This document shows, piece by piece, positions 1-12,487 of a stretch of 64,000 bases of DNA. A model generated the notes under the pieces. The model worked only from the letters and a program-made list of their open reading frames with translations, was not told the origin of the DNA and did not search any database. Numbering within the stretch: position 1 is the first letter of the stretch; every line of letters starts with the position of its first letter. The stretch is from a virus, in the IMG/VR virus record IMGVR_UViG_3300020724_000005, one strand, 5' to 3'. A program made the translations under genes and the position numbers.

Positions 1-172
1 AATCGAGCTGTGACCAGAGCTGTAAATTGAGCTGTGAACCGAGCTGTGAACCGAGCTGTGACCAGAGCTGTGAATTGAGCTGTGACCTGAGCTGTGACCT
101 GAGCTGTGAACCGAGCTGTGAATAGAGCTGTGAATAGAGCTGTGAATTGAGCTGTGAATCGAGCTGTGAATT
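1..172. repeat. 12-bp tandem repeat array A (GAGCTGTGAnnn), 14 full units plus a partial unit running off the window start
   Basis: Direct reading: units at 5-16, 17-28 ... 161-172. Variation is almost entirely in the last 3 nt of each unit (ACC/ATC/CCA/ATT/CCT/ATA). Confidence 0.95.
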
Positions 173-184
173 TATCTCATTCAT
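1..184 (-). CDS. possible small ORF MNEIN(SQLx)n, 3-prime end outside the window
   Basis: ATG at 184-182 directly follows the stop of ORF 186..386. The frame TCA CAG CTC nnn stays open through array A to position 1. Confidence 0.25.
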   Translation of the reverse strand, partial: MNEINSQLDSQLNSQLYSQLYSQLGSQLRSQLRSQLNSQLWSQLGSQLGSQLNLQLWSQLD

Positions 185-185
185 A

Positions 186-386
186 TTACTTACGGTTTTT
201 ATACCATGGATTCACTTGATCATTCTTCTTGACCCTGGATCCCACTTTCAAGAGATACGACCAGGTATTGAATTCGACTTGAGAATCTGGATAGTACGTT
301 CTGAATCCAGGTTGTCTATCGATGATGTTTTCTCCAGTTGCTGGAGTTCCGAAAATGATGTGTTTTATTGTGTCCATAACTTTCAT
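186..386 (-). CDS. hypothetical protein (66 aa) between repeat arrays
   Basis: ORF track. It starts with the same MKVM / TAAATGAAAGTTATG junction as the array B ORF. No recognisable motif. Confidence 0.35.
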   Translation of the reverse strand: MKVMDTIKHIIFGTPATGENIIDRQPGFRTYYPDSQVEFNTWSYLLKVGSRVKKNDQVNPWYKNRK

Positions 387-623
387 TTATGTATTTTGGA
401 GCTGTGAATCGAGCTGTGAATCGAGCTGTGACCAGAGCTGTGAACCGAGCTGTGAACCGAGCTGTGAACCGAGCTGTGAACCGAGCTGTGAATCGAGCTG
501 TGAACCGAGCTGTGAATCGAGCTGTGAATCGAGCTGTGAACCGAGCTGTGAATAGAGCTGTGAATAGAGCCGTAACCTGAGCTGTAACCTGAGCTGTGAG
601 TTTATCTGCTTCATAACTTTCAT
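387..623 (-). CDS. possible tetrapeptide-repeat ORF MKVMKQIN(SQLx)n QNT (78 aa)
   Basis: ORF track. Start and stop sit exactly at the array borders, and the variable trinucleotide of each unit is one codon in this frame. Confidence 0.3.
   Translation of the reverse strand: MKVMKQINSQLRLQLRLRLYSQLYSQLGSQLDSQLDSQLGSQLDSQLGSQLGSQLGSQLGSQLWSQLDSQLDSQLQNT
399..602. repeat. 12-bp tandem repeat array B, 17 units
   Basis: Direct reading: GAGCTGTGAnnn x17 from 399 to 602. Units 15-16 are the variants GAGCCGTAACCT and GAGCTGTAACCT. Confidence 0.95.
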
Positions 624-827
624 TTATGTATTTTGGAGCTGTGAATCGAGCTGTGAATCGAGCTGTGACCAGAGCTGTGAACCGAGCTGTGAACCGAGCT
701 GTGACCAGAGCTGTGAACCGAGCTGTGAACCGAGCTGTGACCAGAGCTGTGAATTGAGCTGTGACCAGAGCTGTGAATAGAGCCGTAACCTGAGCTGTAA
801 CCTGAGCTGTGAATTTATCTGCTTCAT
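624..827 (-). CDS. possible tetrapeptide-repeat ORF MKQIN(SQLx)n QNT (67 aa)
   Basis: ORF track. Same head (MKQINSQLRLQLRLRLYSQL) and tail (DSQLDSQLQNT) as the array B ORF. Its stop TAA abuts the ATG of the next ORF. Confidence 0.3.
   Translation of the reverse strand: MKQINSQLRLQLRLRLYSQLWSQLNSQLWSQLGSQLGSQLWSQLGSQLGSQLWSQLDSQLDSQLQNT
636..815. repeat. 12-bp tandem repeat array C, 15 units
   Basis: Direct reading: GAGCTGTGAnnn x15. The flanks (TTCATAACTTTCATTTATGTATTTTG, and GAATTTATCTGCTTCATAACTTT with one substitution) are duplicated from array B. Confidence 0.95.
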
Positions 828-943
828 AACTTTAATTTAAACAACACTTCCAGTTAGATCAATGATACGCAAATGTCTACATTGCCTTAATTATTCCGTG
901 AGACGGGCGAGTACGGAAGCTGGTTTAGTATTGTTGTGGTTTC

Positions 944-1966
944 TTAAGATCTCATGTCAAACCTATACTCATCAGCTGACAACCTGCTAAGCGAAGCTAT
1001 CGCAGCTATGGCATCTGTGTGGTGTGGCTCTACTCCCTGAAGGTACTGTGTGCCTGTGGAAGGACATACCATCTTGACCCACGCAAATGGTTGGTTGTCT
1101 ATCTCTTCGAACTTCTCTTCTGTCTTGAGCAACGTCACCTCTTCGAGATCTCCGTTGGCGTGCATTATGGTCTGCTTATCAAACTCCTTGGCGCCCAACA
1201 AGTCCATGACTCCTTTCTGACCAAGGATCTCGTACCATGCACCCTTGTAGTCTGAGTTGCGTTCTTTGACGAACTCTTCACGAGTAAGGGATTTTGCCTT
1301 GTTGAATATCTCTGTGGGAATGTGTCGACCGTTGATGTAGTAGCAGTCGTCCCAAGCTGTGCAAGGATAGGTGCTGTTCCAAGTCACTGCCTGGTAAGCT
1401 GGGTTGTGGAGAAGATTGGCCGAGTTGCGTACGATCTTGGTAGGATGCTTGCTGACGATGCAGACTTCCTCGCAGAATATGGCCGAGTATATGTTGGCCT
1501 TCCAGTTGAGAGCCTCGAGCTCGTTCAGTTCTTTGGCAGCTCCTGTGGTCTCGATCTTGAACTCGTCCTGTATGAATTTGTACCACGTGTAGTAGTAACG
1601 GGCGTAGATGCCGATGCTGAACAGAGAAGACTCTACGAACTTCATCGTGCCTTTGTTGTCCTTGATGAACTTGGCCAGGTCTTTTTCCGGGATGTTTTCG
1701 ATGCCCTGTGCTGCCCACTCTATCATGTTCTCATTCTCTACGAGGTAGTGGTACATGATCTTCGCTTCGAGAGGATTCTCTACCACGATCAGATGCTTTG
1801 GACGAGGCTTTTCTGCCGTGTCATACAGCTTATTGACAATACCAAGTGCTGCTTCCTTGTCGAAGTTCTTGTAGTTCTTACCGTCGAATACTCCGTCAAG
1901 AGCGTGGTCGATGTAATCGGGGATCTTTGCTTTGATTTCGTCCGTGAATTGTTCTAAGCTAATCAT
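944..1966 (-). CDS. hypothetical protein (340 aa)
   Basis: Longest ORF in a visibly GC-richer stretch. The overlapping ORFs in other frames are shadows. No motif I can name. Confidence 0.85.
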   Translation of the reverse strand: MISLEQFTDEIKAKIPDYIDHALDGVFDGKNYKNFDKEAALGIVNKLYDTAEKPRPKHLIVVENPLEAKIMYHYLVENENMIEWAAQGIENIPEKDLAKFIKDNKGTMKFVESSLFSIGIYARYYYTWYKFIQDEFKIETTGAAKELNELEALNWKANIYSAIFCEEVCIVSKHPTKIVRNSANLLHNPAYQAVTWNSTYPCTAWDDCYYINGRHIPTEIFNKAKSLTREEFVKERNSDYKGAWYEILGQKGVMDLLGAKEFDKQTIMHANGDLEEVTLLKTEEKFEEIDNQPFAWVKMVCPSTGTQYLQGVEPHHTDAIAAIASLSRLSADEYRFDMRS

Positions 1967-2027
1967 AAAACCTTAATTTTTGTTTGGTGTGTTATAAAAG
2001 TAATAAAAACCTTTGAGATCTTGTAAT

Positions 2028-2675
2028 TTAAGTTTTAAGTAAGATAAATTTTCCTTGTTTTTTGTATAGAGTTATAAGAGATGGTGATATTTTAAAATAT
2101 AATGCAGCTTCATTTTGAGAATTAAATATTAATCCTGTTTCCAAGTGCTGAATTTTTTTTATTTTTGCTAAACTACACTTAATTTTAGAGCTATCTTTAT
2201 GCTTTTTACCAAAAAATCCACCAATAGATCCATACATAGGATTATTTTTTCCTGATACATCATGATGATTTTGACTCACTTTTTTCTTATGATCTTCAGA
2301 TAATGGAATTCTATATTTTGGGTTTTCTTTTCCAACTGGATAGTATCTACTGGATATTTTTTCTCTTGTTTCATAAGATGGATTAAGGTTTCCATCGCCA
2401 CCATCCGTCATATTAACAAGAGATCCGGTCTTTAAGTCAACTCTTCCATAGAATCTAATCCAAAATTTCTCTTTTTCACAAGCTTCTTCCCAAGTCAACC
2501 AATCTTCTGAGATTATTTCTACTTGGTATTCTGTAAGTTTAATTAGATTATCCCAATGCTTATTTCTGTTGTCTTTAGAATAAGCCCTGCTGTATTTTCC
2601 TTTGTTATCTGACCCTATTCCTATATAAAAGATTTCATTCTTATCTAATCTTCTGTGTCTATAGACATATGCCAT
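2028..2675 (-). CDS. GIY-YIG homing endonuclease
   Basis: N-terminal YVYRH..FYIGIGS, NUMOD3-like SxxHKxK repeats, HTH-like C-terminal tail. AT-rich. Preceded by leader copy A. Confidence 0.9.
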   Translation of the reverse strand: MAYVYRHRRLDKNEIFYIGIGSDNKGKYSRAYSKDNRNKHWDNLIKLTEYQVEIISEDWLTWEEACEKEKFWIRFYGRVDLKTGSLVNMTDGGDGNLNPSYETREKISSRYYPVGKENPKYRIPLSEDHKKKVSQNHHDVSGKNNPMYGSIGGFFGKKHKDSSKIKCSLAKIKKIQHLETGLIFNSQNEAALYFKISPSLITLYKKQGKFILLKT

Positions 2676-3640: not shown

Positions 3641-3835
3641 TTAGAGTGGAGTATTCATTCTCCATTCTATAGGTATCATCACTTTAAACTTTATCCTATC
3701 TTCTAACTTATCGTGCAGTGATCTTTCAAGATGACTTCGTGTTAGAGATCTGACCTTAAAATTGACATCTACCATGTTGACCATAGGTGTCCAGATCAAT
3801 AGCATGAGTTTATTTGTAAAATGGATCTTTTTCAT
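3641..3835 (-). CDS. hypothetical protein (64 aa)
   Basis: ORF track. Its start overlaps the stop of the upstream gene by 4 nt. Confidence 0.45.
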   Translation of the reverse strand: MKKIHFTNKLMLLIWTPMVNMVDVNFKVRSLTRSHLERSLHDKLEDRIKFKVMIPIEWRMNTPL

Positions 3836-5163
3836 CTGTAGTCTATTAGATCTTCTAAATCTGGATGCGTCATGTCTTTTGATGTCGGCTTGGGGTGATC
3901 TTTTAATCTATCCTCCTGCGCTTTGACATTCTCAGCCATATCTTTAACTCCAAGGTGTTTAAGATGTTCCAAGTAGAATTCATCTATCTTATAAAAAGAC
4001 TCAAGTTCTTCTGTTGCATCTGGTGATTCTGGTGGTATGGCTTGGAGAATCTGTCTTTTAGACTTAGTGAAGCTGTCAAGCGACAGTAGAAAAGAGCAGT
4101 TATAACACAGCCACCTCAAGTTCTCTTCCGTCCAATCTGTTCTATCTCCATTTATGAAGTTAAGCATCAATGGGATCTTCATATCTATCGGTCTCTTTTG
4201 TGAGAACCCACATTCTTTGCAACAAAATCCGAGCCTCCCATCTTTCATCAAACGCGCTGCAAGTTCATCTATCCTCTTTGGTGTACAATGCTGTCCTTTT
4301 ATAAGCTGGTATCCTAAGATCAATGCTCTTGGGTTTGCTTGATTACGTATATTTCTGACCTTAGGAACTCCTTTGCCTCCTTTTGCTACGTGAAGATCGA
4401 ATAGAGTTCTTCCAGTTTGTTGATCAACATAGGATTTTGCGTATTTCTTCCAGGTTTTATATGACACTCTTATCCACTCTGCTGCTTCTCTGTTGCTTCT
4501 GGTGTTCTTCATCGCATTGCGGATGACTTCTTCTGACAGCTGAAGACCTTTCCATTTCCACTCCTCAGGTCTTTCGCTGTATGGGCATTCTCCTTTCTTA
4601 AACTTATTCTCTTCCCACTTGCGTTTTCTTTCTGCCAACCGCTCGAACCAACCAGATTCCTTTCTAGCCATAAACCTTTCATAGTTGACCTTTCTCCACT
4701 TCTCATGCTGAAGCTCGTACAAAGTCATCCCAGTCTCTTCATCTGTGATAGCTTTAGCGTATTTTTTATAACTCGGATAAGATACTTCTAAGACTTCAGA
4801 AGCCTCTTTATTGGAGTTTGTGATCTCCATCGCTTTGCGTATCTGCTCTTCAGTGATATCAAGCTTTGAATACTGCCCCTTTCCTTTAACTCCACGCTTC
4901 TTTGGCTTTGATCCTACCTTCTTGGATTTTTCTATCAGCAAGTTCTTTCTCTGGAGTTCTAACAGAGTAAGACCTGTCTCAGAGTCTAGGTATCTGTCTG
5001 CCCAAATCTTGAACCTATATGGGCTTACATGTATGTGCTTTGCAGCTTTGTCTATATGGTTGGAGAATTGTATTGCCTTCCTTATCTCAGATTCTGCTAT
5101 TACGTATTGCGCTGCCCAAGATTTTATGCCCTTCTTGGGATCATCAAATAATCCTGCTGCCAT
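3832..5163 (-). CDS. HNH-like nuclease-domain protein with three tandem HTH-like repeats
   Basis: Three repeats of roughly 55 aa (E.IR.AM..N..EA....VSY..YKKYAK..D..TG.TL.EL). The C-terminal CCKECG...NFINGD...ENLRWLCYNC resembles an HNH zinc-finger core with the first His not conserved. Confidence 0.8.
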   Translation of the reverse strand: MAAGLFDDPKKGIKSWAAQYVIAESEIRKAIQFSNHIDKAAKHIHVSPYRFKIWADRYLDSETGLTLLELQRKNLLIEKSKKVGSKPKKRGVKGKGQYSKLDITEEQIRKAMEITNSNKEASEVLEVSYPSYKKYAKAITDEETGMTLYELQHEKWRKVNYERFMARKESGWFERLAERKRKWEENKFKKGECPYSERPEEWKWKGLQLSEEVIRNAMKNTRSNREAAEWIRVSYKTWKKYAKSYVDQQTGRTLFDLHVAKGGKGVPKVRNIRNQANPRALILGYQLIKGQHCTPKRIDELAARLMKDGRLGFCCKECGFSQKRPIDMKIPLMLNFINGDRTDWTEENLRWLCYNCSFLLSLDSFTKSKRQILQAIPPESPDATEELESFYKIDEFYLEHLKHLGVKDMAENVKAQEDRLKDHPKPTSKDMTHPDLEDLIDYR

Positions 5164-7698: not shown

Positions 7699-8372
7699 TC
7701 TATTGTAGGAGATAGGAATTGATTTTCACAATGAGTTGAATATCCTGAGATACAGGAAATAAGATTGGATCCATGATTCCATAATTCTAAAAACTTAGTG
7801 TGATCATATCCATCATGAGTATATTCTGGTAAGCAGTATTTTATATGAAAATCTAACCAATGTTTTTTAAAAGTCTTCCATCGAGCTGCATATGTATTAC
7901 AAGTAGAGGGAGTTGTTCTCCAATGACATGATTGAGTATGAAGTATTTTTGATTGGAGATTATCATACATAGGTAAAAAGTATTTATCTGGGTGATCATA
8001 CAGAGTTACATAGTCTACATTAAAGGAATTAAAAGATTCCAATAGTACTCGATCCCAACCATCTTTATGTAAATAATCATCTTCTATTATGTAAACTATA
8101 TCTTCATCTTCTAAATTACAAGATTCTATATAATTAAGAGCATATAGTAAACTAGAAGCATCATTGCCCCCAATAAATTCTACTATCTTGTCTTCATAAT
8201 CAAATTTAAAATGATGATCTTCTTTTGTTCCATCTAGTAAAATAGTTAAGTCTATATCTGCTTTCTTAATAGATCTATAGCATTTTTCATAAGAAAACCA
8301 AGATGGTCTAACATCTAATTTCCGTTTATTAGCACCATTCCAATGACGAAGAAATACTTTTATTTTATTCAT
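7683..8372 (-). CDS. hypothetical protein, possible nucleotide-sugar transferase
   Basis: 229-aa ORF. IVYIIEDDYLH resembles a DxD motif. Otherwise unassigned. Confidence 0.7.
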   Translation of the reverse strand: MNKIKVFLRHWNGANKRKLDVRPSWFSYEKCYRSIKKADIDLTILLDGTKEDHHFKFDYEDKIVEFIGGNDASSLLYALNYIESCNLEDEDIVYIIEDDYLHKDGWDRVLLESFNSFNVDYVTLYDHPDKYFLPMYDNLQSKILHTQSCHWRTTPSTCNTYAARWKTFKKHWLDFHIKYCLPEYTHDGYDHTKFLELWNHGSNLISCISGYSTHCENQFLSPTIDWSKI

Positions 8373-9033
8373 GACAAATCCATTTACTAGCTATTAATGA
8401 TTTTATCGGACTTAAATCTTTATCTAAAGGTTTTCTTGGATATAAATGAAGATTTTTAGAGAGATTTAAAGATTCTATAATAAAAAATAAAGCTGTAGAA
8501 ACTGTGTAAATCTCAGTAGCTTGTTCTAATATTCCACACCAATCAAGCAAAGTATATCCATCAATATACTCTTGATAAATTATTTTTAGATTCGAATCAA
8601 TTTTTATATCAACTTTATAACTATATTCTTTAGATGCAAAATTATTATTAATGAATATAAACTTATCATTTGAATCAATATTTAATAATTTTTTAAGTTC
8701 TGATTCTTTTTTGTGATTTCTTTTAAAAGATAAAGATCTCCACATACTTAAATCAACATTAAATAATTTATATTTCGCTTCCATACAATCTTGAGATTCT
8801 GGAAATATTGAATGAGCATGTTGGAACGGGACTTCAATATAGTCTAAATATAAATTTTTGTCGAACTTAGATTGTTCAATAAAAGTTAAATTATCAATCT
8901 CTATATAATCTTTTATCCAATAATAATGATCTACTACTGGCCACACAGTATGTTCTGCATCTATTAGTTTTACTATAGGACTTATGAATAGTATGTCTCC
9001 TATTCCAAAAGGTTGATTAATTACTACTTTCAT
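8365..9033 (-). CDS. hypothetical protein in glycosylation island
   Basis: 222-aa, very AT-rich ORF. The N-terminal GIGDILFISP is only loosely glycosyltransferase-like. Confidence 0.7.
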   Translation of the reverse strand: MKVVINQPFGIGDILFISPIVKLIDAEHTVWPVVDHYYWIKDYIEIDNLTFIEQSKFDKNLYLDYIEVPFQHAHSIFPESQDCMEAKYKLFNVDLSMWRSLSFKRNHKKESELKKLLNIDSNDKFIFINNNFASKEYSYKVDIKIDSNLKIIYQEYIDGYTLLDWCGILEQATEIYTVSTALFFIIESLNLSKNLHLYPRKPLDKDLSPIKSLIASKWICHE

Positions 9034-9772
9034 AGATTTTATTTAGTCTATCTTTTACTGTATCATTAAAAAGATCAAAGTCTAGCTTTTTTGCCCCATG
9101 TCCACCAGCGTGATGTAATATTTTAATTTTTTTATTATTTAAAACTAAATCATCTCCAATAATACTAATTTGTTTCCAACTATCCCAATGAGTATTATTC
9201 CCAAATAGATTTGAAATACCGTAATATACACCTGATTCTTTTGGATCTAAAATTTTTGTTTTATAACTTAGCTGTAATTCATTTAAAACTGACTGTTCTT
9301 GGAATGGTAGATTATTTCCATAAGATATATTTCTATGAATCCATTCTTCCAATAGGGTTTTATTGGTAATAGCAACTAATCCAGCATTTAGATAATTTTG
9401 TGGATCTATATTTTGTTGAGTAATGTAGTGATCTTTTCCTGCTTTGTTATAATCATTGTTATTTCTAACTCCTATAATATCAAACTGAAGATTGCTTTCA
9501 TCTAATAATTCATCAAGCTTTCCGACAATCATAGAGTCTGCATCAAAATGAACTACAATATCGTAATCATCTATAAGTTGATATGATACTATTGGGTTTA
9601 GAGTATTCCAGTTTATATTAGGATGTATGGAAAATAGATCAGAAATTTCTTTGTCTCCAAAACAATAAAAATCTATTTCTGGATGGAAATGTTTTATAGA
9701 CTTACGTAATTTATCGGCTCCTATACTATAATACCAATTATCAGAGACATGAGTGCAAAATGCTACCTTCAT
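9017..9772 (-). CDS. GT8-like glycosyltransferase (paralog 1)
   Basis: DIVVHFDADSMIVGKLDELL (DxD) and HHAGG. Alignable by eye along its length to ORF 9772..10542. Confidence 0.7.
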   Translation of the reverse strand: MKVAFCTHVSDNWYYSIGADKLRKSIKHFHPEIDFYCFGDKEISDLFSIHPNINWNTLNPIVSYQLIDDYDIVVHFDADSMIVGKLDELLDESNLQFDIIGVRNNNDYNKAGKDHYITQQNIDPQNYLNAGLVAITNKTLLEEWIHRNISYGNNLPFQEQSVLNELQLSYKTKILDPKESGVYYGISNLFGNNTHWDSWKQISIIGDDLVLNNKKIKILHHAGGHGAKKLDFDLFNDTVKDRLNKIYESSN

Positions 9773-10542
9773 TATTTAACTATATTACTATATATGAAAT
9801 TTACAACTTCAGAAGAAAATAAACTACTAGGGTGCGCTTTATTATTTCCTCCTCCGGCAAAGTGATAAGCTTTTATAGGTTTTCCATCTAATTCTAATCT
9901 TCCATTTGACACAACTATTTGATTTTCTCTTCCTAAAGCAGAACATCCATAATAACAAGAAAAATTTGGATCTGTATACTCAAAAGCTCCCTCTAATACT
10001 TTAAATTTATAAGGAAGCATGTGACATATTATATTCAATATATCGTTTTCTTTATTTCCAAAAAGATCTGAATAATTTAATGACATATACTCATACTTAT
10101 CCCAAAAATCTTTAGATGTACTCGCTATTAAGCCACCTTGTATATATTTGTTAAATTGAATTAATTCACTACTTTTAAAAACTCCGCAAGAACTAGCAAA
10201 ACTATTTATTCCAATTCCAGAATTTAGATGTGAATTATAATTTGCAGGAGCTGATATATCATAGTCTCCTATTAATATTTCAGATAATTCCCCTAATATT
10301 AAATGATCGGCATCTATATTAACAACTAGATCATAATCATTATATAATTTTTTTGCAAAGGTTGCTTTTGAATTATAAAAATTCAATCTAGAATCTTCAG
10401 AAAAAGTATTATCTATATCTTTTTGTCCAAATATAATTAAATCTATATCTGGATGAAAATTTTTAAAAGATTTTATAAATTCATCAGTTCTGCATCCATG
10501 ATAATGACTATCGCCTATAATGATATAAAAAGCTGTTTTCAT
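9772..10542 (-). CDS. GT8-like glycosyltransferase (paralog 2)
   Basis: DLVVNIDADHLILGELSEIL and HFAGGG. Shares MK.AF, F.NFHP.ID..FG.K.I and the DAD block with the neighbour. Confidence 0.7.
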   Translation of the reverse strand: MKTAFYIIIGDSHYHGCRTDEFIKSFKNFHPDIDLIIFGQKDIDNTFSEDSRLNFYNSKATFAKKLYNDYDLVVNIDADHLILGELSEILIGDYDISAPANYNSHLNSGIGINSFASSCGVFKSSELIQFNKYIQGGLIASTSKDFWDKYEYMSLNYSDLFGNKENDILNIICHMLPYKFKVLEGAFEYTDPNFSCYYGCSALGRENQIVVSNGRLELDGKPIKAYHFAGGGNNKAHPSSLFSSEVVNFIYSNIVK

Positions 10543-10552
10543 TTTTATTTTT

Positions 10553-11245
10553 TTATAATTTTAAACAAAATAATCCATCTGGTCCGAAGTGTTTTATTTC
10601 ATATCCGTACTTAATAAAGATTTGTTCAAATATCGCTCTTTGTTCTGTATAACCAACTCCACCAACTTCGTGAAATTCAATTAAGATCTTAGAAACTATG
10701 TTACTCATAAAAGAGATTACGTCTTCATTTAAAGCTATTGTCTCTGATCCTTCAATATCCATTTTTATAAAATCGACCTTTTTTAATTTTAAAGATTGTA
10801 TAAGATCTTTTATCGAATAGCTATTAACTTCAAAACTATTTTCTCCTCTGTTAATAAGAGAATTCATTGTAGTATTTGAAAAAAAGCTATAAAAAATATC
10901 TGTTCCTGTTTTATTAGATATTGCACCTTGAATCCTATTTATATTCGAATATGATTCCGTCAATTTAGTCAATAGATTAAAATGATTAGGAGTAGGTTCA
11001 ACACAGTATATTTTTTTTGCCCATGGACTAATATGTAAAGCGAATAGACCGATATTTGCACCTAAATCTAATATAATCTTATCATTCTTATCTATAAATT
11101 TATTATAATAATCTTGATCATTAAATTGAGTTAATATCTCTTTAGTGCAATTTCTGGTATCATTAAAGTGATTTTCTAATTCTAAAGAATTTAATTCTAT
11201 AGTAATAATACTTCCATCTATTAATTTTAAATTTCTCTTATCCAT
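10553..11245 (-). CDS. FkbM-family methyltransferase
   Basis: ILDLGANIGLFAL, CVEPTP and FIKMDIEGSE. Confidence 0.85.
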   Translation of the reverse strand: MDKRNLKLIDGSIITIELNSLELENHFNDTRNCTKEILTQFNDQDYYNKFIDKNDKIILDLGANIGLFALHISPWAKKIYCVEPTPNHFNLLTKLTESYSNINRIQGAISNKTGTDIFYSFFSNTTMNSLINRGENSFEVNSYSIKDLIQSLKLKKVDFIKMDIEGSETIALNEDVISFMSNIVSKILIEFHEVGGVGYTEQRAIFEQIFIKYGYEIKHFGPDGLFCLKL

Positions 11246-11261
11246 TTTATAATTTTTTCAA

Positions 11262-11756
11262 TTAATTTTTTTGTCCCATTGCCATAAACGCATTATTCAA
11301 GTCAACTCCAGAATAAAATATATTACTATATTTTCTATCTTTCATATAATCTACTATAATCTCAGCAGTAAAGATGTTTAAGTGTTTTCTATTATTCCAT
11401 GGTCTCCAATATTCTTGAGAATAATCTGGAAGATATAAAAATAAAGTACCCCCTATTTTTAATTTAGAAGTCCAATAGTCTAGTACATCAACCCAATTTT
11501 GTAAATGTTCTAAACAATGAGATGAAAATACATAATCTAAATCTTTATGAGGAAAATTTAATGCATCATATTTGATATCAATTTCAGGATCTATAGGAAT
11601 AGCTCCAGGGAACTTCCATTCTAATCTATTACAACCTATATCTACTCCCTGTCCCTTACATACATGTTTAGCGTATGGTATTGCAAATTGTGCTGCATAT
11701 CCTTCTGATTGGAATTTTGGATATTCTTTTTCTTTATATTTTAAAGTTTCTATCAT
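11262..11756 (-). CDS. class I SAM-dependent methyltransferase
   Basis: GVDIGCN, DYVFSSHCLEHL and LKIGGTLFLYLP. Confidence 0.75.
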   Translation of the reverse strand: MIETLKYKEKEYPKFQSEGYAAQFAIPYAKHVCKGQGVDIGCNRLEWKFPGAIPIDPEIDIKYDALNFPHKDLDYVFSSHCLEHLQNWVDVLDYWTSKLKIGGTLFLYLPDYSQEYWRPWNNRKHLNIFTAEIIVDYMKDRKYSNIFYSGVDLNNAFMAMGQKN

Positions 11757-11765
11757 AAGATAATT

Positions 11766-11861
11766 TTAATAACCTTCTTTATCTCCTCCTACAATTAAAA
11801 AATAACATGACAACCCTATTAATACTAAAAATAAAAAAATTAATAGAAAAACGTATTTCAT
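11766..11861 (-). CDS. possible 31-aa hydrophobic peptide (below ORF-track cutoff)
   Basis: Hand translation: MKYVFLLIFLFLVLIGLSCYFLIVGGDKEGY then stop. It fills the 11757-11863 gap between two genes. Confidence 0.3.
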   Translation of the reverse strand: MKYVFLLIFLFLVLIGLSCYFLIVGGDKEGY

Positions 11862-11863
11862 TT

Positions 11864-12487
11864 CTATATCGTCTCGTATAATTTATTTTGTTTCTCTTGT
11901 CTTTCTATGGTTTTCGGATGCAACAAACACCAATGATCTTCTGCTGGTAAGTGAGCATACGTAGATGTTCCTATCAACCTCTCATGTACTTTACCAGTCC
12001 ACTTTATCTCAGAGACGTTTCTCATGATCCTTGATTGGTAATCTGGGAAATTCACTCTGCCTTGTTCGTCTACGTTCCATCCCCACTTGTCTATGTACTC
12101 TTGTGTCAATCCCTCTACCGTGTTTATCCTAGGTACAAGAAACATATCTACTGTTGGATTTTGCTCAAGAAGAGAGGCTATATTAGACATCAAATACTCA
12201 TTCGGCACCTCATCAGCATCTATAAAAACAATATAATCCTTTTTGCAGAAATCCTTTATGTTGTTCTTGAAAGTGGCAAAATCTTTATTCAGCGGAAATT
12301 CAATCAGAGTTTCTATGTGATTTTTAAAACCAAACACTGCCATCTTAACCTCGTCTGATGCATTGGTATCTAACTGAACCACTATCTCATCTCCTTCAGA
12401 TTTATGGTCGCATAGCTCAGTAAGTAGTCTCTTCAGCTCTTCGTGTTCATTATAGGCTGTGATAGCATATGATATTGTTGGGATCAT
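11864..12487 (-). CDS. glycosyltransferase family 2 (GT-A)
   Basis: ISYAITAYNEHEEL, IVVQLD and VFIDADE. Confidence 0.85.
   Translation of the reverse strand: MIPTISYAITAYNEHEELKRLLTELCDHKSEGDEIVVQLDTNASDEVKMAVFGFKNHIETLIEFPLNKDFATFKNNIKDFCKKDYIVFIDADEVPNEYLMSNIASLLEQNPTVDMFLVPRINTVEGLTQEYIDKWGWNVDEQGRVNFPDYQSRIMRNVSEIKWTGKVHERLIGTSTYAHLPAEDHWCLLHPKTIERQEKQNKLYETI

What the first reader, a model, noticed from the sequence alone, without database searches (positions are those of the whole stretch)
1..827. Three arrays of a 12-bp tandem repeat whose variation is confined to one codon, with phased small ORFs encoding (Ser-Gln-Leu-X)n
Seen: 46 units of GAGCTGTGAnnn lie in three arrays (5-172, 399-602, 636-815). 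Arrays B and C carry duplicated flanks. Nearly all variation sits in the last 3 nt, which take only six values (ACC, ATC, CCA, ATT, CCT, ATA). On the minus strand these three nt are exactly one codon of the frame TCA CAG CTC nnn, giving SQL followed by G, D, W, N, R or Y. In that frame each array is bounded by an ATG (MKQIN.. or MNEIN..) and a stop (..QNT TAA), and the stop abuts the next ATG (TAAATG). The ATA units are stop codons (TAG) in one plus-strand frame but Tyr in the minus frame. Inference: either the arrays encode a family of tetrapeptide-repeat peptides, or they are a DNA-level element (iterons, centromere-like site or packaging site) at the end of the long unidirectional gene block, and the phasing is a by-product. 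I know of no described family matching (SQLx)n.
Basis: partly seen in the sequence, partly recalled or inferred. Interest (0 to 1): 0.7.

Follow-up and report, generated by a model that had tools for sequence, protein, structure and literature searches.

The report
Repeat-only (Ser-Gln-Leu-X)n phage mini-genes
The three 12-bp arrays most likely form three tiny phage genes made almost entirely of a Ser-Gln-Leu-X repeat, the same repeat that forms a variable-length linker in hundreds of uncharacterised phage proteins, so they are not a DNA site such as an origin or packaging signal.

Summary
There are 46 units of GAGCTGTGAnnn in three arrays. On the minus strand they read as three tightly packed small ORFs of the form M-K/N-Q/E-I-N-(S-Q-L-X)n.

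The coding reading is supported and the DNA-element reading is not.
- The same tetrapeptide repeat lies in frame between an N-terminal domain and a DUF6745 domain in hundreds of phage proteins.
- Among 80 viral loci found without regard to codons, Ser-Gln-Leu is written in at least 30 different 9-nt forms. Each single array uses almost only one form. The peptide is conserved between lineages, and the DNA is homogenised within each array.
- The gene just upstream in the window (340 aa) belongs to this family but has no repeats.
- Six related viral contigs keep the same gene order, with a different number of mini-ORFs and different X strings. Three other relatives have no mini-ORFs, so the arrays are dispensable.
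- Genes continue in the same direction beyond window position 1, so the arrays do not end a gene block.

AlphaFold draws the 78-aa product as a single helix. Function is unknown. The closest precedent is the tetrapeptide-repeat counter-defence protein gp54 of mycobacteriophage Tweety, which is an analogue and not a homologue. Repeat-only genes of this kind appear undescribed. Selection on the standalone ORFs themselves is not proven.

The parts
624..827 (-). Mini-gene C, 67 aa: MKQIN + 15 units of (S/L)(Q/R)L-X + tail QNT. Its stop codon TAA abuts the ATG of gene B.
   Evidence: The identical ORF is present in L008 and L046. A version 36 nt shorter is in L048, and a chimeric in-frame version is in L047.
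636..815 (.). Array C: 15 units of GAGCTGTGAnnn, which reads TCACAGCTCnnn on the coding strand.
387..623 (-). Mini-gene B, 78 aa: MKVMKQIN + 17 units + tail QNT. It is a tandem paralogue of C, and its stop abuts the ATG of the 66-aa gene.
   Evidence: B and C are 88% identical over 252 nt. The gene caller of the source collection called a 78-aa gene at this position in L046 (4344-4580). AlphaFold2 draws a single helix over residues 2-76.
399..602 (.). Array B: 17 units.
186..386 (-). Conserved non-repeat 66-aa gene (MKVMDTIKH...PWYKNRK) lying between the mini-genes. Function unknown.
   Evidence: Orthologues are 74-83% identical in 7 further viral contigs, with or without flanking arrays. The exact protein occurs on 7 contigs. 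No Pfam, PHROG, NCBIfam or PADLOC match.
1..184 (-). Mini-gene A, cut by the window edge. ATG at 184-182, MNEIN + (SQLX)n. The full length is 69 aa, ending QNIKA*, and its stop overlaps the ATG of the next gene (ATGA).
   Evidence: The complete ORF is seen in L008 1953-2162 and L046 4783-4992.
5..172 (.). Array A: 14 units inside the window, with about 2 more beyond position 1.
   Evidence: L008 shows the continuation.
944..1966 (-). 340-aa gene, a repeat-less member of the family built as N-domain + (xQLx)n + DUF6745. It lies immediately upstream of the mini-genes.
   Evidence: Pfam DUF6745 scores only E=4.9e-4, below the curated cut-off. The profile-profile comparison with the family gives probability 100%, E=3e-47 over 336 columns, and the family's repeat block falls in a gap of the window protein. 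Orthologues are 89-93% identical. Subfamily members P0009, P0110 and P0008 carry the repeats in frame.
828..943 (-). Intergenic spacer between the 340-aa gene and mini-gene C. It contains a block (ggaataattaaggcaatgtagac...gcgtatcattgatctaac) that is conserved among relatives, including those without arrays.

Best explanation
The arrays are the bodies of three small protein-coding genes on the minus strand. This is the same strand as all 50-odd large ORFs of the window.

Shown:
- Each gene is Met, a degenerate first unit (KQIN or NEIN), 14-17 tetrapeptide units S-Q-L-X and a tail of 3-5 residues.
- The genes are packed stop-to-start with the conserved neighbouring genes.
- The tetrapeptide is the same motif that forms the central region of very variable length (about 5 to more than 60 units) between the N-terminal domain and the DUF6745 domain in hundreds of phage and prophage proteins.
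- A repeat-less member of that family sits directly upstream of the mini-genes.
- Each array uses essentially one 9-nt spelling of Ser-Gln-Leu, and lineages differ in that spelling.
- The X codon stays diverse and is drawn from a restricted alphabet: D, Y, R, G, W, N, A, S, H. These are mostly N-R-Y codons plus TGG. Aliphatic residues, K, T and P are almost absent.
- The mini-genes are accessory. Close relatives have 0 to 5 copies at this locus, and the same phage lineage carries further copies at other intergenic sites.

Inferred:
- Arrays evolve by gain and loss of 12-nt units through slippage or unequal recombination.
- The products are amphipathic alpha-helical rods of about 11 nm with Leu at every fourth residue, and their length and X pattern are easily changed.
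- By analogy with Tweety gp54 and with the TAEL repeats of type IC HsdS subunits, the repeat is a length-tunable helical module.
- In this phage it is expressed on its own as a fast-evolving accessory protein, most likely in phage-host or phage-phage conflict.
- As a side effect, the dispersed arrays give homology for recombination between loci.
For: The repeat as a protein motif:
- A search with ORF B finds N-domain + (SQLX)n fragments.
- A search with a full-length member finds 728 proteins, nearly all of the 120 listed carrying PF20530. All 23 retrieved show the repeat (SQLX or a xQLx variant), and all but one the full N-domain + (SQLX)n + K-x-I-N-x-x-W + DUF6745 layout.
- An exhaustive phmmer search gives 622 representatives at E<=1e-3, mostly 300-530 aa long.

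Codons:
- 80 loci found without regard to codons show at least 30 different 9-nt spellings of SQL between arrays and near-uniform spelling within each array, for example 57/60, 37/37 and 38/41 (first seen).
- Across 399 units, wobble positions vary most. Non-consensus counts for S1..L3 are 1, 19, 39, 1, 8, 4, 11, 3, 42, giving 79 synonymous against 42 non-synonymous changes. About 33 of the synonymous counts are fixed codon differences of two whole arrays (L019, L022); in the standalone ORFs alone the count is 14:25.

Frame:
- Only the SQLX frame has an ATG at the head of the array (20 of 27). Antisense frames carry stops in 23-26 of 27 arrays.
- In 25 standalone arrays (345 units), stops occur only within the last 2 units or fewer.
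- 30 distinct mini-ORFs in five or more upstream contexts all start MK[QE]I.
- Stop/start abutment or ATGA overlap with conserved neighbours.
- Other genes of the window also lack Shine-Dalgarno sequences, so its absence here says nothing.

Synteny and turnover:
- The order 340-aa gene, then 1-4 mini-ORFs, then the 66-aa gene, then 1 mini-ORF holds in L003, L004/L014, L006, L008 and L016, with different unit numbers and X strings, while the 340-aa protein is 89-93% identical.
- The arrays are absent in L028-L030.
- L011 has gained a cassette of about 225 nt.
- There is a 36-nt length variant (L048) and an in-frame crossover between two arrays (L047) among contigs that carry the identical 340-aa gene.

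Neighbour homology: hhalign E=3e-47.

Structure: ORF B is drawn as a single helix with pLDDT 88. The embedded repeat is drawn helical but with pLDDT below 50.

Precedents: Tweety gp54 (PMC2884959 and PMC9262239) and TAEL in EcoR124I/II (PMC3874165).
Against: - There is no direct evidence of transcription or translation.
- Within the standalone ORFs alone, variant units split 14 synonymous, 25 non-synonymous and 0 stop. This does not differ from the neutral expectation of 7/27 synonymous (p=0.11). Protein-level selection is therefore shown for the repeat family, not for these mini-genes themselves.
- Sense frames are nearly stop-free by construction, and 12-nt indels keep the frame by construction.
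- Standalone ORFs were found only in one phage lineage, the one that uses TCACAGCTC units.
- The exact B, C and A products are not in the 15-billion-protein collection.
- A long helix from AlphaFold run on a single sequence is weak evidence.
- The functional analogy to gp54 rests on architecture only. There is no homology, and gp54's tuning model needs two flanking domains, which the mini-genes lack.
- The length variant and the crossover come from short-read assemblies, which can collapse or chimerise repeats.
Confidence: 0.7

Rival explanations
1. The standalone arrays are a non-functional or selfish minisatellite. They descend from the coding repeat of a DUF6745-type gene and spread and expand by recombination within this phage lineage. 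The ORFs are incidental, because the unit cannot easily make stops. The only real consequence is recombination between dispersed copies.
For: - The synonymous to non-synonymous split in the standalone ORFs is not distinguishable from neutral.
- Two of the three sense frames are stop-free by construction.
- Copies are present or absent among close relatives.
- L011 gained a cassette flanked by a duplicated intergenic element.
- A crossover inside an array joins two loci.
- The standalone form is restricted to one lineage.
- The exact products are absent from the protein collection.
Against: - An ATG with the conserved first unit MK[QE]IN sits at the head of 20 of 27 arrays, and only in the SQLX frame.
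- No mid-array stops occur in 345 units, although about 29% of X codons (TGG, TAY) are one step from a stop.
- The ORFs are joined stop-to-start with conserved genes.
- The X alphabet is the same restricted set as in the embedded arrays, which are clearly protein-coding.
- Relatives without arrays have a small non-repetitive ORF at the position of gene A that starts MKNI and has Leu or Ile at roughly every fourth residue.
Confidence: 0.2
2. The arrays are a functional DNA element: iterons of an origin, a centromere-like partition site or a packaging site that binds a phage protein. The codon phasing is a by-product.
For: - Phased 12-bp direct repeats in clusters resemble iteron or parS arrays.
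- The 9-mer is invariant within this lineage.
- Many viral contigs end inside such arrays, which could be mistaken for genome termini.
Against: - Between lineages the 9-mer changes freely at synonymous positions, even AGC for TCA and TTG for CTC, while the peptide stays the same.
- Most arrays lie inside large ORFs (67 of 80).
- Close relatives with 89% identity in the flanking 340-aa protein have no arrays, so the arrays cannot be an essential origin or packaging site.
- The neighbouring genes are not replication, partition or terminase genes, and the gene block continues past the arrays.
- The same genome lineage has arrays at five or more scattered sites.
- One contig has an array at both ends (L060 and L062), which points to an assembly break in a circular map.
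Confidence: 0.05
3. The arrays are silent or semi-silent cassettes that donate repeat units by recombination to DUF6745-type genes, in this phage or in co-infecting phages, and so diversify their linkers.
For: - They lie next to a DUF6745-family gene.
- Recombination within arrays is observed.
- A DUF6745 protein with the same TCACAGCTC-type units exists in another phage (L018).
Against: - The adjacent 340-aa gene has no repeats to receive units, and it is 89-93% conserved.
- Each cassette has its own ATG and stop.
- No donor-acceptor pair was seen.
Confidence: 0.04
4. The plus strand is the coding strand, giving (SCEx)n or MYFG(AVNR)n peptides.
For: ATG- or TTG-initiated plus-strand ORFs exist in the window at 322..555, 389..580 and 626..757.
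Against: - All neighbouring genes are on the minus strand.
- Antisense frames carry stops in 23-26 of 27 related arrays, and an ATG in at most 1.
- The homologous proteins read SQLX.
Confidence: 0.01

Closest known systems
DUF6745 (PF20530) family proteins of phages and prophages with a central (xQLx)n array. Examples: P0018, P0023, and Mycobacterium phage prophiGD102-1 gp38.
   Same: The tetrapeptide is identical (S-Q-L-X; G/D-Q-L-W/R/G in high-GC hosts). The 12-nt unit is the same, codons are uniform within each array, and the X alphabet is the same (D, Y, R, G and others). Unit number varies strongly between near-identical proteins (P0018 with 370 aa against P0019 with 330 aa; P0024 with 424 against P0054 with 316)..
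   Different: In the family the array links an N-terminal domain of about 75 aa to a DUF6745 domain of about 200 aa. The window arrays are whole genes with neither domain, and the neighbouring family member has no array. The family itself is uncharacterised: no papers, no PDB match by sequence and none by fold.
Mycobacteriophage Tweety gp54 (also Che8 gp57 and PMC gp51), a tetrapeptide-repeat counter-defence protein.
   Same: It has a 12-bp unit encoding a tetrapeptide with invariant and variable residues. Variation is concentrated in first and second codon positions of the variable codons. Copy number differs between relatives (15, 26 and 48), and the gene is dispensable. Mutants with more or fewer repeats tune escape from the Phrann gp29/gp30 defence (PMC2884959 and PMC9262239).
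   Different: The repeat is AA[GWQ][SY], not SQLX. The flanking domains are unrelated: no DUF6745, and a different PHROG. gp54 has two flanking domains, and the proposed mechanism depends on how they are placed relative to each other. The window genes have none.
TAEL tetrapeptide repeats in the central conserved region of type IC HsdS subunits (EcoR124I, EcoR124II, EcoDXXI).
   Same: A 12-bp repeat encodes polar-small-E/Q-Leu, just over one helical turn. Copy number acts as a helical ruler, turning N6 into N7 in the recognition site (PMC3874165). ORF B gives a weak match to a PADLOC HsdS model (E=1.2e-3).
   Different: HsdS has only 2-3 copies, inside a coiled coil between two DNA-recognition domains. 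There is no homology and no hypervariable position.
VR2 repeats of gene bbp36 in Bordetella phage BPP-1/BMP-1.
   Same: A tandem in-gene repeat whose copy number differs between isolates of a phage, in a non-essential gene. The Tweety paper cites it as a parallel.
   Different: The unit is 24 bp, the protein is unrelated, and it was not examined here.

Membership tests
(xQLx)n tetrapeptide array of the DUF6745 protein family | Tandem in-frame units x-Q-L-x (S-Q-L-X in low-GC phages), 5 or more copies, 12-nt period. | tested here: met
   46 units in the window. phmmer of ORF B against family members gives E down to 8e-55.
(xQLx)n tetrapeptide array of the DUF6745 protein family | The array lies between the N-terminal KLTxEQExKIPxYIxKW...SP domain and the C-terminal DUF6745 domain of a single polypeptide. 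| tested here: not met
   The window ORFs are 67, 78 and 69 aa and consist of Met + repeats + a short tail. The mini-genes are relatives of the repeat module, not DUF6745 proteins.
(xQLx)n tetrapeptide array of the DUF6745 protein family | The peptide is conserved while codons differ between lineages, which shows protein-level constraint. | tested here: met
   At least 30 spellings of SQL among 80 arrays. For the standalone subset alone the test is inconclusive.
DUF6745 family (applied to the neighbouring gene 944..1966) | Homology to PF20530 and to the N-terminal domain. | tested here: met
   Pfam alone is below its cut-off (19.9 bits against 27). hhalign against a 64-sequence family alignment gives probability 100%, E=3e-47, 336 columns.
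Tweety gp54-like tetrapeptide-repeat counter-defence proteins | A 12-bp unit encoding a tetrapeptide with invariant and variable residues, with variable copy number. | tested here: met
   compared with PMC2884959.
Tweety gp54-like tetrapeptide-repeat counter-defence proteins | Sequence homology to gp54 (phrog_3416) or to its N- and C-terminal regions. | tested here: not met
   gp54 matches phrog_3416 and has no DUF6745. The window ORFs and P0018 do not match phrog_3416.
Tweety gp54-like tetrapeptide-repeat counter-defence proteins | Inactivates a host or prophage defence, with activity tuned by the number of repeats. | not testable with these tools
   This needs plaque assays on hosts that carry defence systems.
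Iterons, centromere-like sites or packaging sites | The DNA sequence of the repeat is conserved as such and lies in or next to replication, partition or terminase genes, usually in non-coding DNA. | tested here: not met
   The DNA is not conserved between lineages. 67 of 80 arrays lie inside large ORFs. The neighbours are a DUF6745-like gene, a 66-aa gene and small genes.
Iterons, centromere-like sites or packaging sites | Needed by the replicon, so present in close relatives. | tested here: not met
   L028-L030 keep the 340-aa and 66-aa genes but have no arrays.
Diversity-generating retroelement variable repeats | A template repeat/variable repeat pair with adenine-specific differences and a nearby reverse transcriptase. 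| not tested
   The X codons (N-R-Y plus TGG) only superficially recall the NNY outcomes of such elements. No template copy is evident and no search for a reverse transcriptase was made.

The most novel reading that the evidence does not exclude
The repeat-only helices are a new kind of free-standing, programmable module. The string of X residues would form a recognition code along one face of a Leu-striped helix. It would let each mini-protein pair in register with a matching (xQLx)n array, for example the linker of a DUF6745 protein of a competing phage or prophage, or a host sensor, or with the repeat-less 340-aa neighbour in trans. The phage would then carry a rapidly re-writable set of decoys or adaptors. 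The dispersed arrays would also drive modular genome rearrangement.
Probability: 0.1. Interest if true: 0.8.

Novelty: new variant of a known kind. Interest (0 to 1): 0.55.

Why it matters
Phage proteins with a hypervariable tetrapeptide array are known from essentially one studied case, Tweety gp54, where repeat number tunes a counter-defence.

This work shows that a different tetrapeptide, S-Q-L-X, defines a much larger and unstudied family. It has hundreds of 50%-identity representatives and carries DUF6745, whose predicted fold has no match in the PDB. One lineage of large freshwater-type myoviruses expresses the repeat as free-standing multicopy mini-genes.

If these turn out to be functional, they offer a very small and easily engineered system for asking what such arrays do: ruler, decoy or pairing code. 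They would also flag DUF6745 proteins as candidates in phage-host conflict.

There is a practical side too. The arrays break and may chimerise metagenomic assemblies, gene callers handle them inconsistently, and they can be mistaken for origins or genome termini.

Tried and rejected
- **Cultured phages.** Megablast and tblastn of the region and of the 340-aa ORF against 50,697 phage records found no match. With P0018, only prophiGD102-1 gp38 and weak Microcystis phage hits appeared.
- **RNA and signals.** There are no tRNAs and no Rfam family. There are no terminator-like sites, and promoter-like matches are at chance level.
- **Protein libraries.** Pfam, PHROGs, NCBIfam and PADLOC give nothing meaningful for the mini-ORFs or the 66-aa ORF, only low-complexity noise such as DUF826 and a weak HsdS match.
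- **Solved structures.** The family profile finds only a low-complexity hit by sequence. Foldseek of the P0018 model against the PDB finds nothing (best E=0.6), so the fold gives no clue to function.
- **Bacterial and archaeal genomes.** The exact DNA pattern returned mostly unrelated triple repeats. The single true family member is on a short MAG contig, so no host was identified.
- **Literature.** Nothing for DUF6745 or for SQLxSQL strings.
- **Indel test.** The test for 3-nt indels that are not multiples of 12 had too few events to be useful. There were two in-frame codon insertions, and one frameshift inside an embedded array in L022.
- **Selection test.** The synonymous/non-synonymous test restricted to standalone ORFs was inconclusive.
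- **Plus-strand coding.** Rejected.
Full report
**1. The observation**

The sequence at 1-827 holds 46 head-to-tail units of GAGCTGTGAnnn: 14 at 5-172, 17 at 399-602 and 15 at 636-815. The 9-mer with up to one mismatch occurs 55 times in the window against 14.1 +/- 3.4 in shuffles, and 44 of the 55 lie in these arrays.

On the minus strand the units read TCA CAG CTC nnn, which is S-Q-L-X. The ORFs are 624..827 (67 aa, MKQIN...QNT*), 387..623 (78 aa, MKVMKQIN...QNT*), a non-repetitive ORF at 186..386 (66 aa), and an ORF starting at 184 (MNEIN...) that runs off the window.

- There is a seventh triplet, GTT.
- Five units are altered inside the 9-mer, and all these changes are non-synonymous.
- Array A is cut by the window edge.

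Two of the three sense frames cannot contain a stop codon whatever nnn is, so openness alone means little. What counts is that across 27 related arrays only the SQLX frame has an ATG at its head (20 of 27, against 1 and 0), and that the antisense frames carry stops in 23-26 of 27.

**2. Setting**

All ORFs of 150 aa or more that look like genes are on the minus strand. The element is a large myovirus. It has a tail sheath, a tape measure protein, a family A DNA polymerase, ribonucleotide reductase and GroEL, and its nearest cultured relative is Flavobacterium phage immuto at 48% sheath identity. Its genes lack Shine-Dalgarno sequences in general.

The viral contig L008 is 100% identical to window 2136..1 and runs 3.6 kb further, with genes continuing in the same direction. 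So the arrays are not at the end of the gene block. ORF A is 69 aa in full, and its stop overlaps the next ATG.

**3. The repeat is a protein motif**

A search with ORF B returns fragments made of a conserved N-terminal domain (KLTxEQExKIPxYIxKW...SP) followed by (SQLX)n. A search with a full-length example (L018, 395 aa) returns 728 proteins of about 300-650 aa, nearly all of the 120 listed carrying PF20530 (DUF6745). All 23 that were retrieved show the repeat (SQLX or a xQLx variant), and all but one the full layout: N-domain, then 5 to more than 60 SQLX units, then K-x-I-N-x-x-W, then DUF6745. An exhaustive phmmer search of 1.84 billion representatives gives 622 hits at E<=1e-3, almost all large proteins.

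In a high-GC Mycobacterium abscessus prophage the same family carries GDQL/WGQL/RGQL units, so Q-L is the core of the repeat.

The decisive test was a scan that ignores codon choice. In 80 viral loci, Ser-Gln-Leu is written in at least 30 different 9-nt ways between arrays (AGCCAGCTC, TCACAGCTT, TCGCAGTTG, AGTCAACTT and others). Each array uses virtually one spelling, for example 57/60 or 37/37 (first seen). The peptide is therefore what is conserved, and the DNA uniformity inside an array reflects concerted evolution. Across 399 non-redundant units, variation within the nine SQL nucleotides is concentrated at wobble positions. The counts are 1, 19, 39, 1, 8, 4, 11, 3, 42, giving 79 synonymous against 42 non-synonymous changes. 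Part of that excess comes from two whole arrays written with other codons (L019, L022; about 33 of the 79 synonymous counts).

**4. The neighbouring gene**

ORF 944..1966 (340 aa) scores below the Pfam threshold for DUF6745. A profile-profile comparison with a 64-sequence family alignment gives probability 100%, E=3e-47 over 336 columns, covering both domains. The family's repeat block falls in a gap of the window protein. Members of the same subfamily (P0009, P0110, P0008) do have the repeats in frame. So in this phage the family protein lacks the array, and arrays sit just downstream as separate genes.

**5. Comparative anatomy of the mini-genes**

Six related viral contigs (five distinct phages) keep the same order: the 340-aa gene, then 1-4 mini-ORFs, then the 66-aa gene, then one mini-ORF, then a 101-106-aa membrane/coiled-coil ORF, then a 78-aa four-cysteine zinc-finger-like ORF. 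The 340-aa protein is 89-93% identical among them, while the number of mini-ORFs, the number of units and the X strings all differ.

Three other relatives, found through the 66-aa gene, have no arrays at all. At the place of gene A they carry a 54-56-aa non-repetitive ORF that starts MKNI and has Leu or Ile at about every fourth residue.

The same phage lineage carries further mini-ORFs at other intergenic sites. They have different upstream sequences, yet all start MK[QE]I. One of them (L011) is an insertion of about 225 nt relative to two relatives, flanked by a duplicated intergenic element.

MKQIN is simply Met plus a degenerate first unit (K-Q-I-N fits x-Q-L/I-x). The same kind of degenerate unit (K-D/E-I-N) closes the array in the large proteins.

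In 25 standalone arrays (345 units), stops in the SQLX frame occur only within the last two units.

**6. Population variation**

The exact 340-aa protein occurs on 23 contigs that were read. Of these, 18 look like the window (L046). Three (the L048 type) have gene C shorter by exactly three units. One (L047) is 99.95% identical to the window type up to a point inside array C, and from there is 98.9% identical to a different locus (the L013 type). The result is an intact chimeric mini-ORF. Arrays therefore change in 12-nt steps and can serve as crossover points between dispersed copies. The caveat is that these are short-read assemblies, and many viral contigs break inside such arrays.

**7. 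Limits of the coding case for the standalone genes**

Restricted to the 33 distinct mini-ORFs, variant units split 14 synonymous, 25 non-synonymous and 0 stop. This is not distinguishable from the neutral expectation (p=0.11). The exact products are not in the large protein collection, although a gene caller did call the 78-aa and 69-aa ORFs in L046. A minisatellite that is derived from coding sequence but no longer selected remains a live rival, at about 0.2.

**8. Structure and mechanism**

AlphaFold2 with a family alignment models the N-domain and DUF6745 confidently (pLDDT about 90). It draws the repeat as helix with pLDDT below 50. The fold has no PDB match. ORF B alone is drawn as one helix over residues 2-76 with pLDDT 88. 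This is weak evidence, because single-sequence runs favour long helices.

X is drawn from a narrow alphabet:
- In embedded arrays: D 29.5%, Y 20%, R 17%, G 16%.
- In standalone arrays: R, D, Y, W, G, A and N.

These are mostly N-R-Y codons plus TGG, and aliphatic residues, K, T and P are almost absent.

My reading is as follows. The unit is a helical module with a Leu stripe, and its copy number is easily changed by slippage. In the large proteins it would set the distance and rotation between the two domains. Here it is expressed alone. What the free helices do is inferred, not shown.

**9. Comparison with what is known**

- **Tweety gp54.** This is the closest published case. [quoted passage not shown] Mutants with more or fewer repeats tune escape from the Phrann gp29/gp30 defence (PMC9262239). 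gp54 shares no domain or PHROG with this family, so it is an analogue and not a relative.
- **TAEL repeats of type IC HsdS subunits.** These show that a 12-bp, four-residue unit can act as a helical ruler (PMC3874165).
- **Literature on this family.** No paper in the library mentions DUF6745 or SQLxSQL strings.

**10. Verdict**

The coding alternative is supported, strongly for the repeat family and moderately for these mini-genes. The DNA-site alternative is rejected as a primary function. The standalone, multicopy, repeat-only genes are a new variant of the tetrapeptide-repeat phage protein theme. Their function is open.

Noticed in passing
L047 4146-4247 (compared with L046 and L013): A contig with the identical 340-aa gene switches, inside array C, from the window-type sequence (99.95% identity) to a different locus of the L013 type (98.9% identity). 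The result is an in-frame chimeric mini-ORF. This is either a real recombination between dispersed arrays or an assembly chimera.
   Followed up: partly
L028 about 2241-2405; L029 and L030 at the equivalent position: Relatives without arrays carry a 54-56-aa non-repetitive ORF at the position of mini-gene A (MKNITPRFKLSINLNHKLSGTLEDKISLELNDQLNSLLW...). It has Leu or Ile at about every fourth residue and a weak BLASTP similarity to a mini-ORF (E=2e-4). It may be the non-repetitive ancestor or a counterpart.
   Followed up: partly
L011 3370-3653 (compared with L013 3982-4041 and the reverse complement of L001 at 9545-9603): A mini-ORF is present as an insertion of about 225 nt flanked by two copies of an intergenic element (aaaaagaYgtacattta) that also precedes other genes. 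This looks like cassette-style gain through promoter-like repeats.
   Followed up: partly
L022 6001-6820: A DUF6745 gene is split into two called genes by a +1 frameshift inside its TCTCAGCTT array. This could be a pseudogene, a phase variant or a sequencing error.
   Followed up: no
L021 6001-6524: A family member (P0009) ends right after its AGCCAGTTG array. The array is followed by degenerate, decayed units up to the contig end.
   Followed up: no
window 2028-2675 and 3832-5163 (minus strand): Two endonuclease-like ORFs lie close to the locus. One is 215 aa with a GIY-YIG-like N-terminus (by eye) and weak, sub-threshold NUMOD3 and I-TevI DNA-binding matches, suggesting a homing endonuclease. 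The other is 443 aa with an HNH endonuclease match at its C-terminus.
   Followed up: no
window, upstream of the genes whose high coordinates are 14250, 21753, 31782, 35381, 36143 and 57474: A motif close to ATATTTATAATAAAA recurs just upstream of several start codons. It may be a phage-specific promoter.
   Followed up: no
window 8001-12000: G+C content drops to 26-27%, against about 40-46% in most of the window. This may be a horizontally acquired gene cluster.
   Followed up: no
L060 and L062 (one contig), and many of L049-L128: A large share of viral contigs end inside (SQLX)n arrays, and one contig has an array at both ends. The arrays break short-read assemblies and could be misread as genome termini.
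   Followed up: partly
L008 2160-2309 (= L046 4989-5138), just beyond window position 1: A 49-aa hydrophobic ORF (MKKINKLNVIRIISFVLFTF...) starts in an ATGA overlap with the stop of mini-gene A. The start sequence is conserved downstream of the last mini-ORF in all relatives.
   Followed up: no
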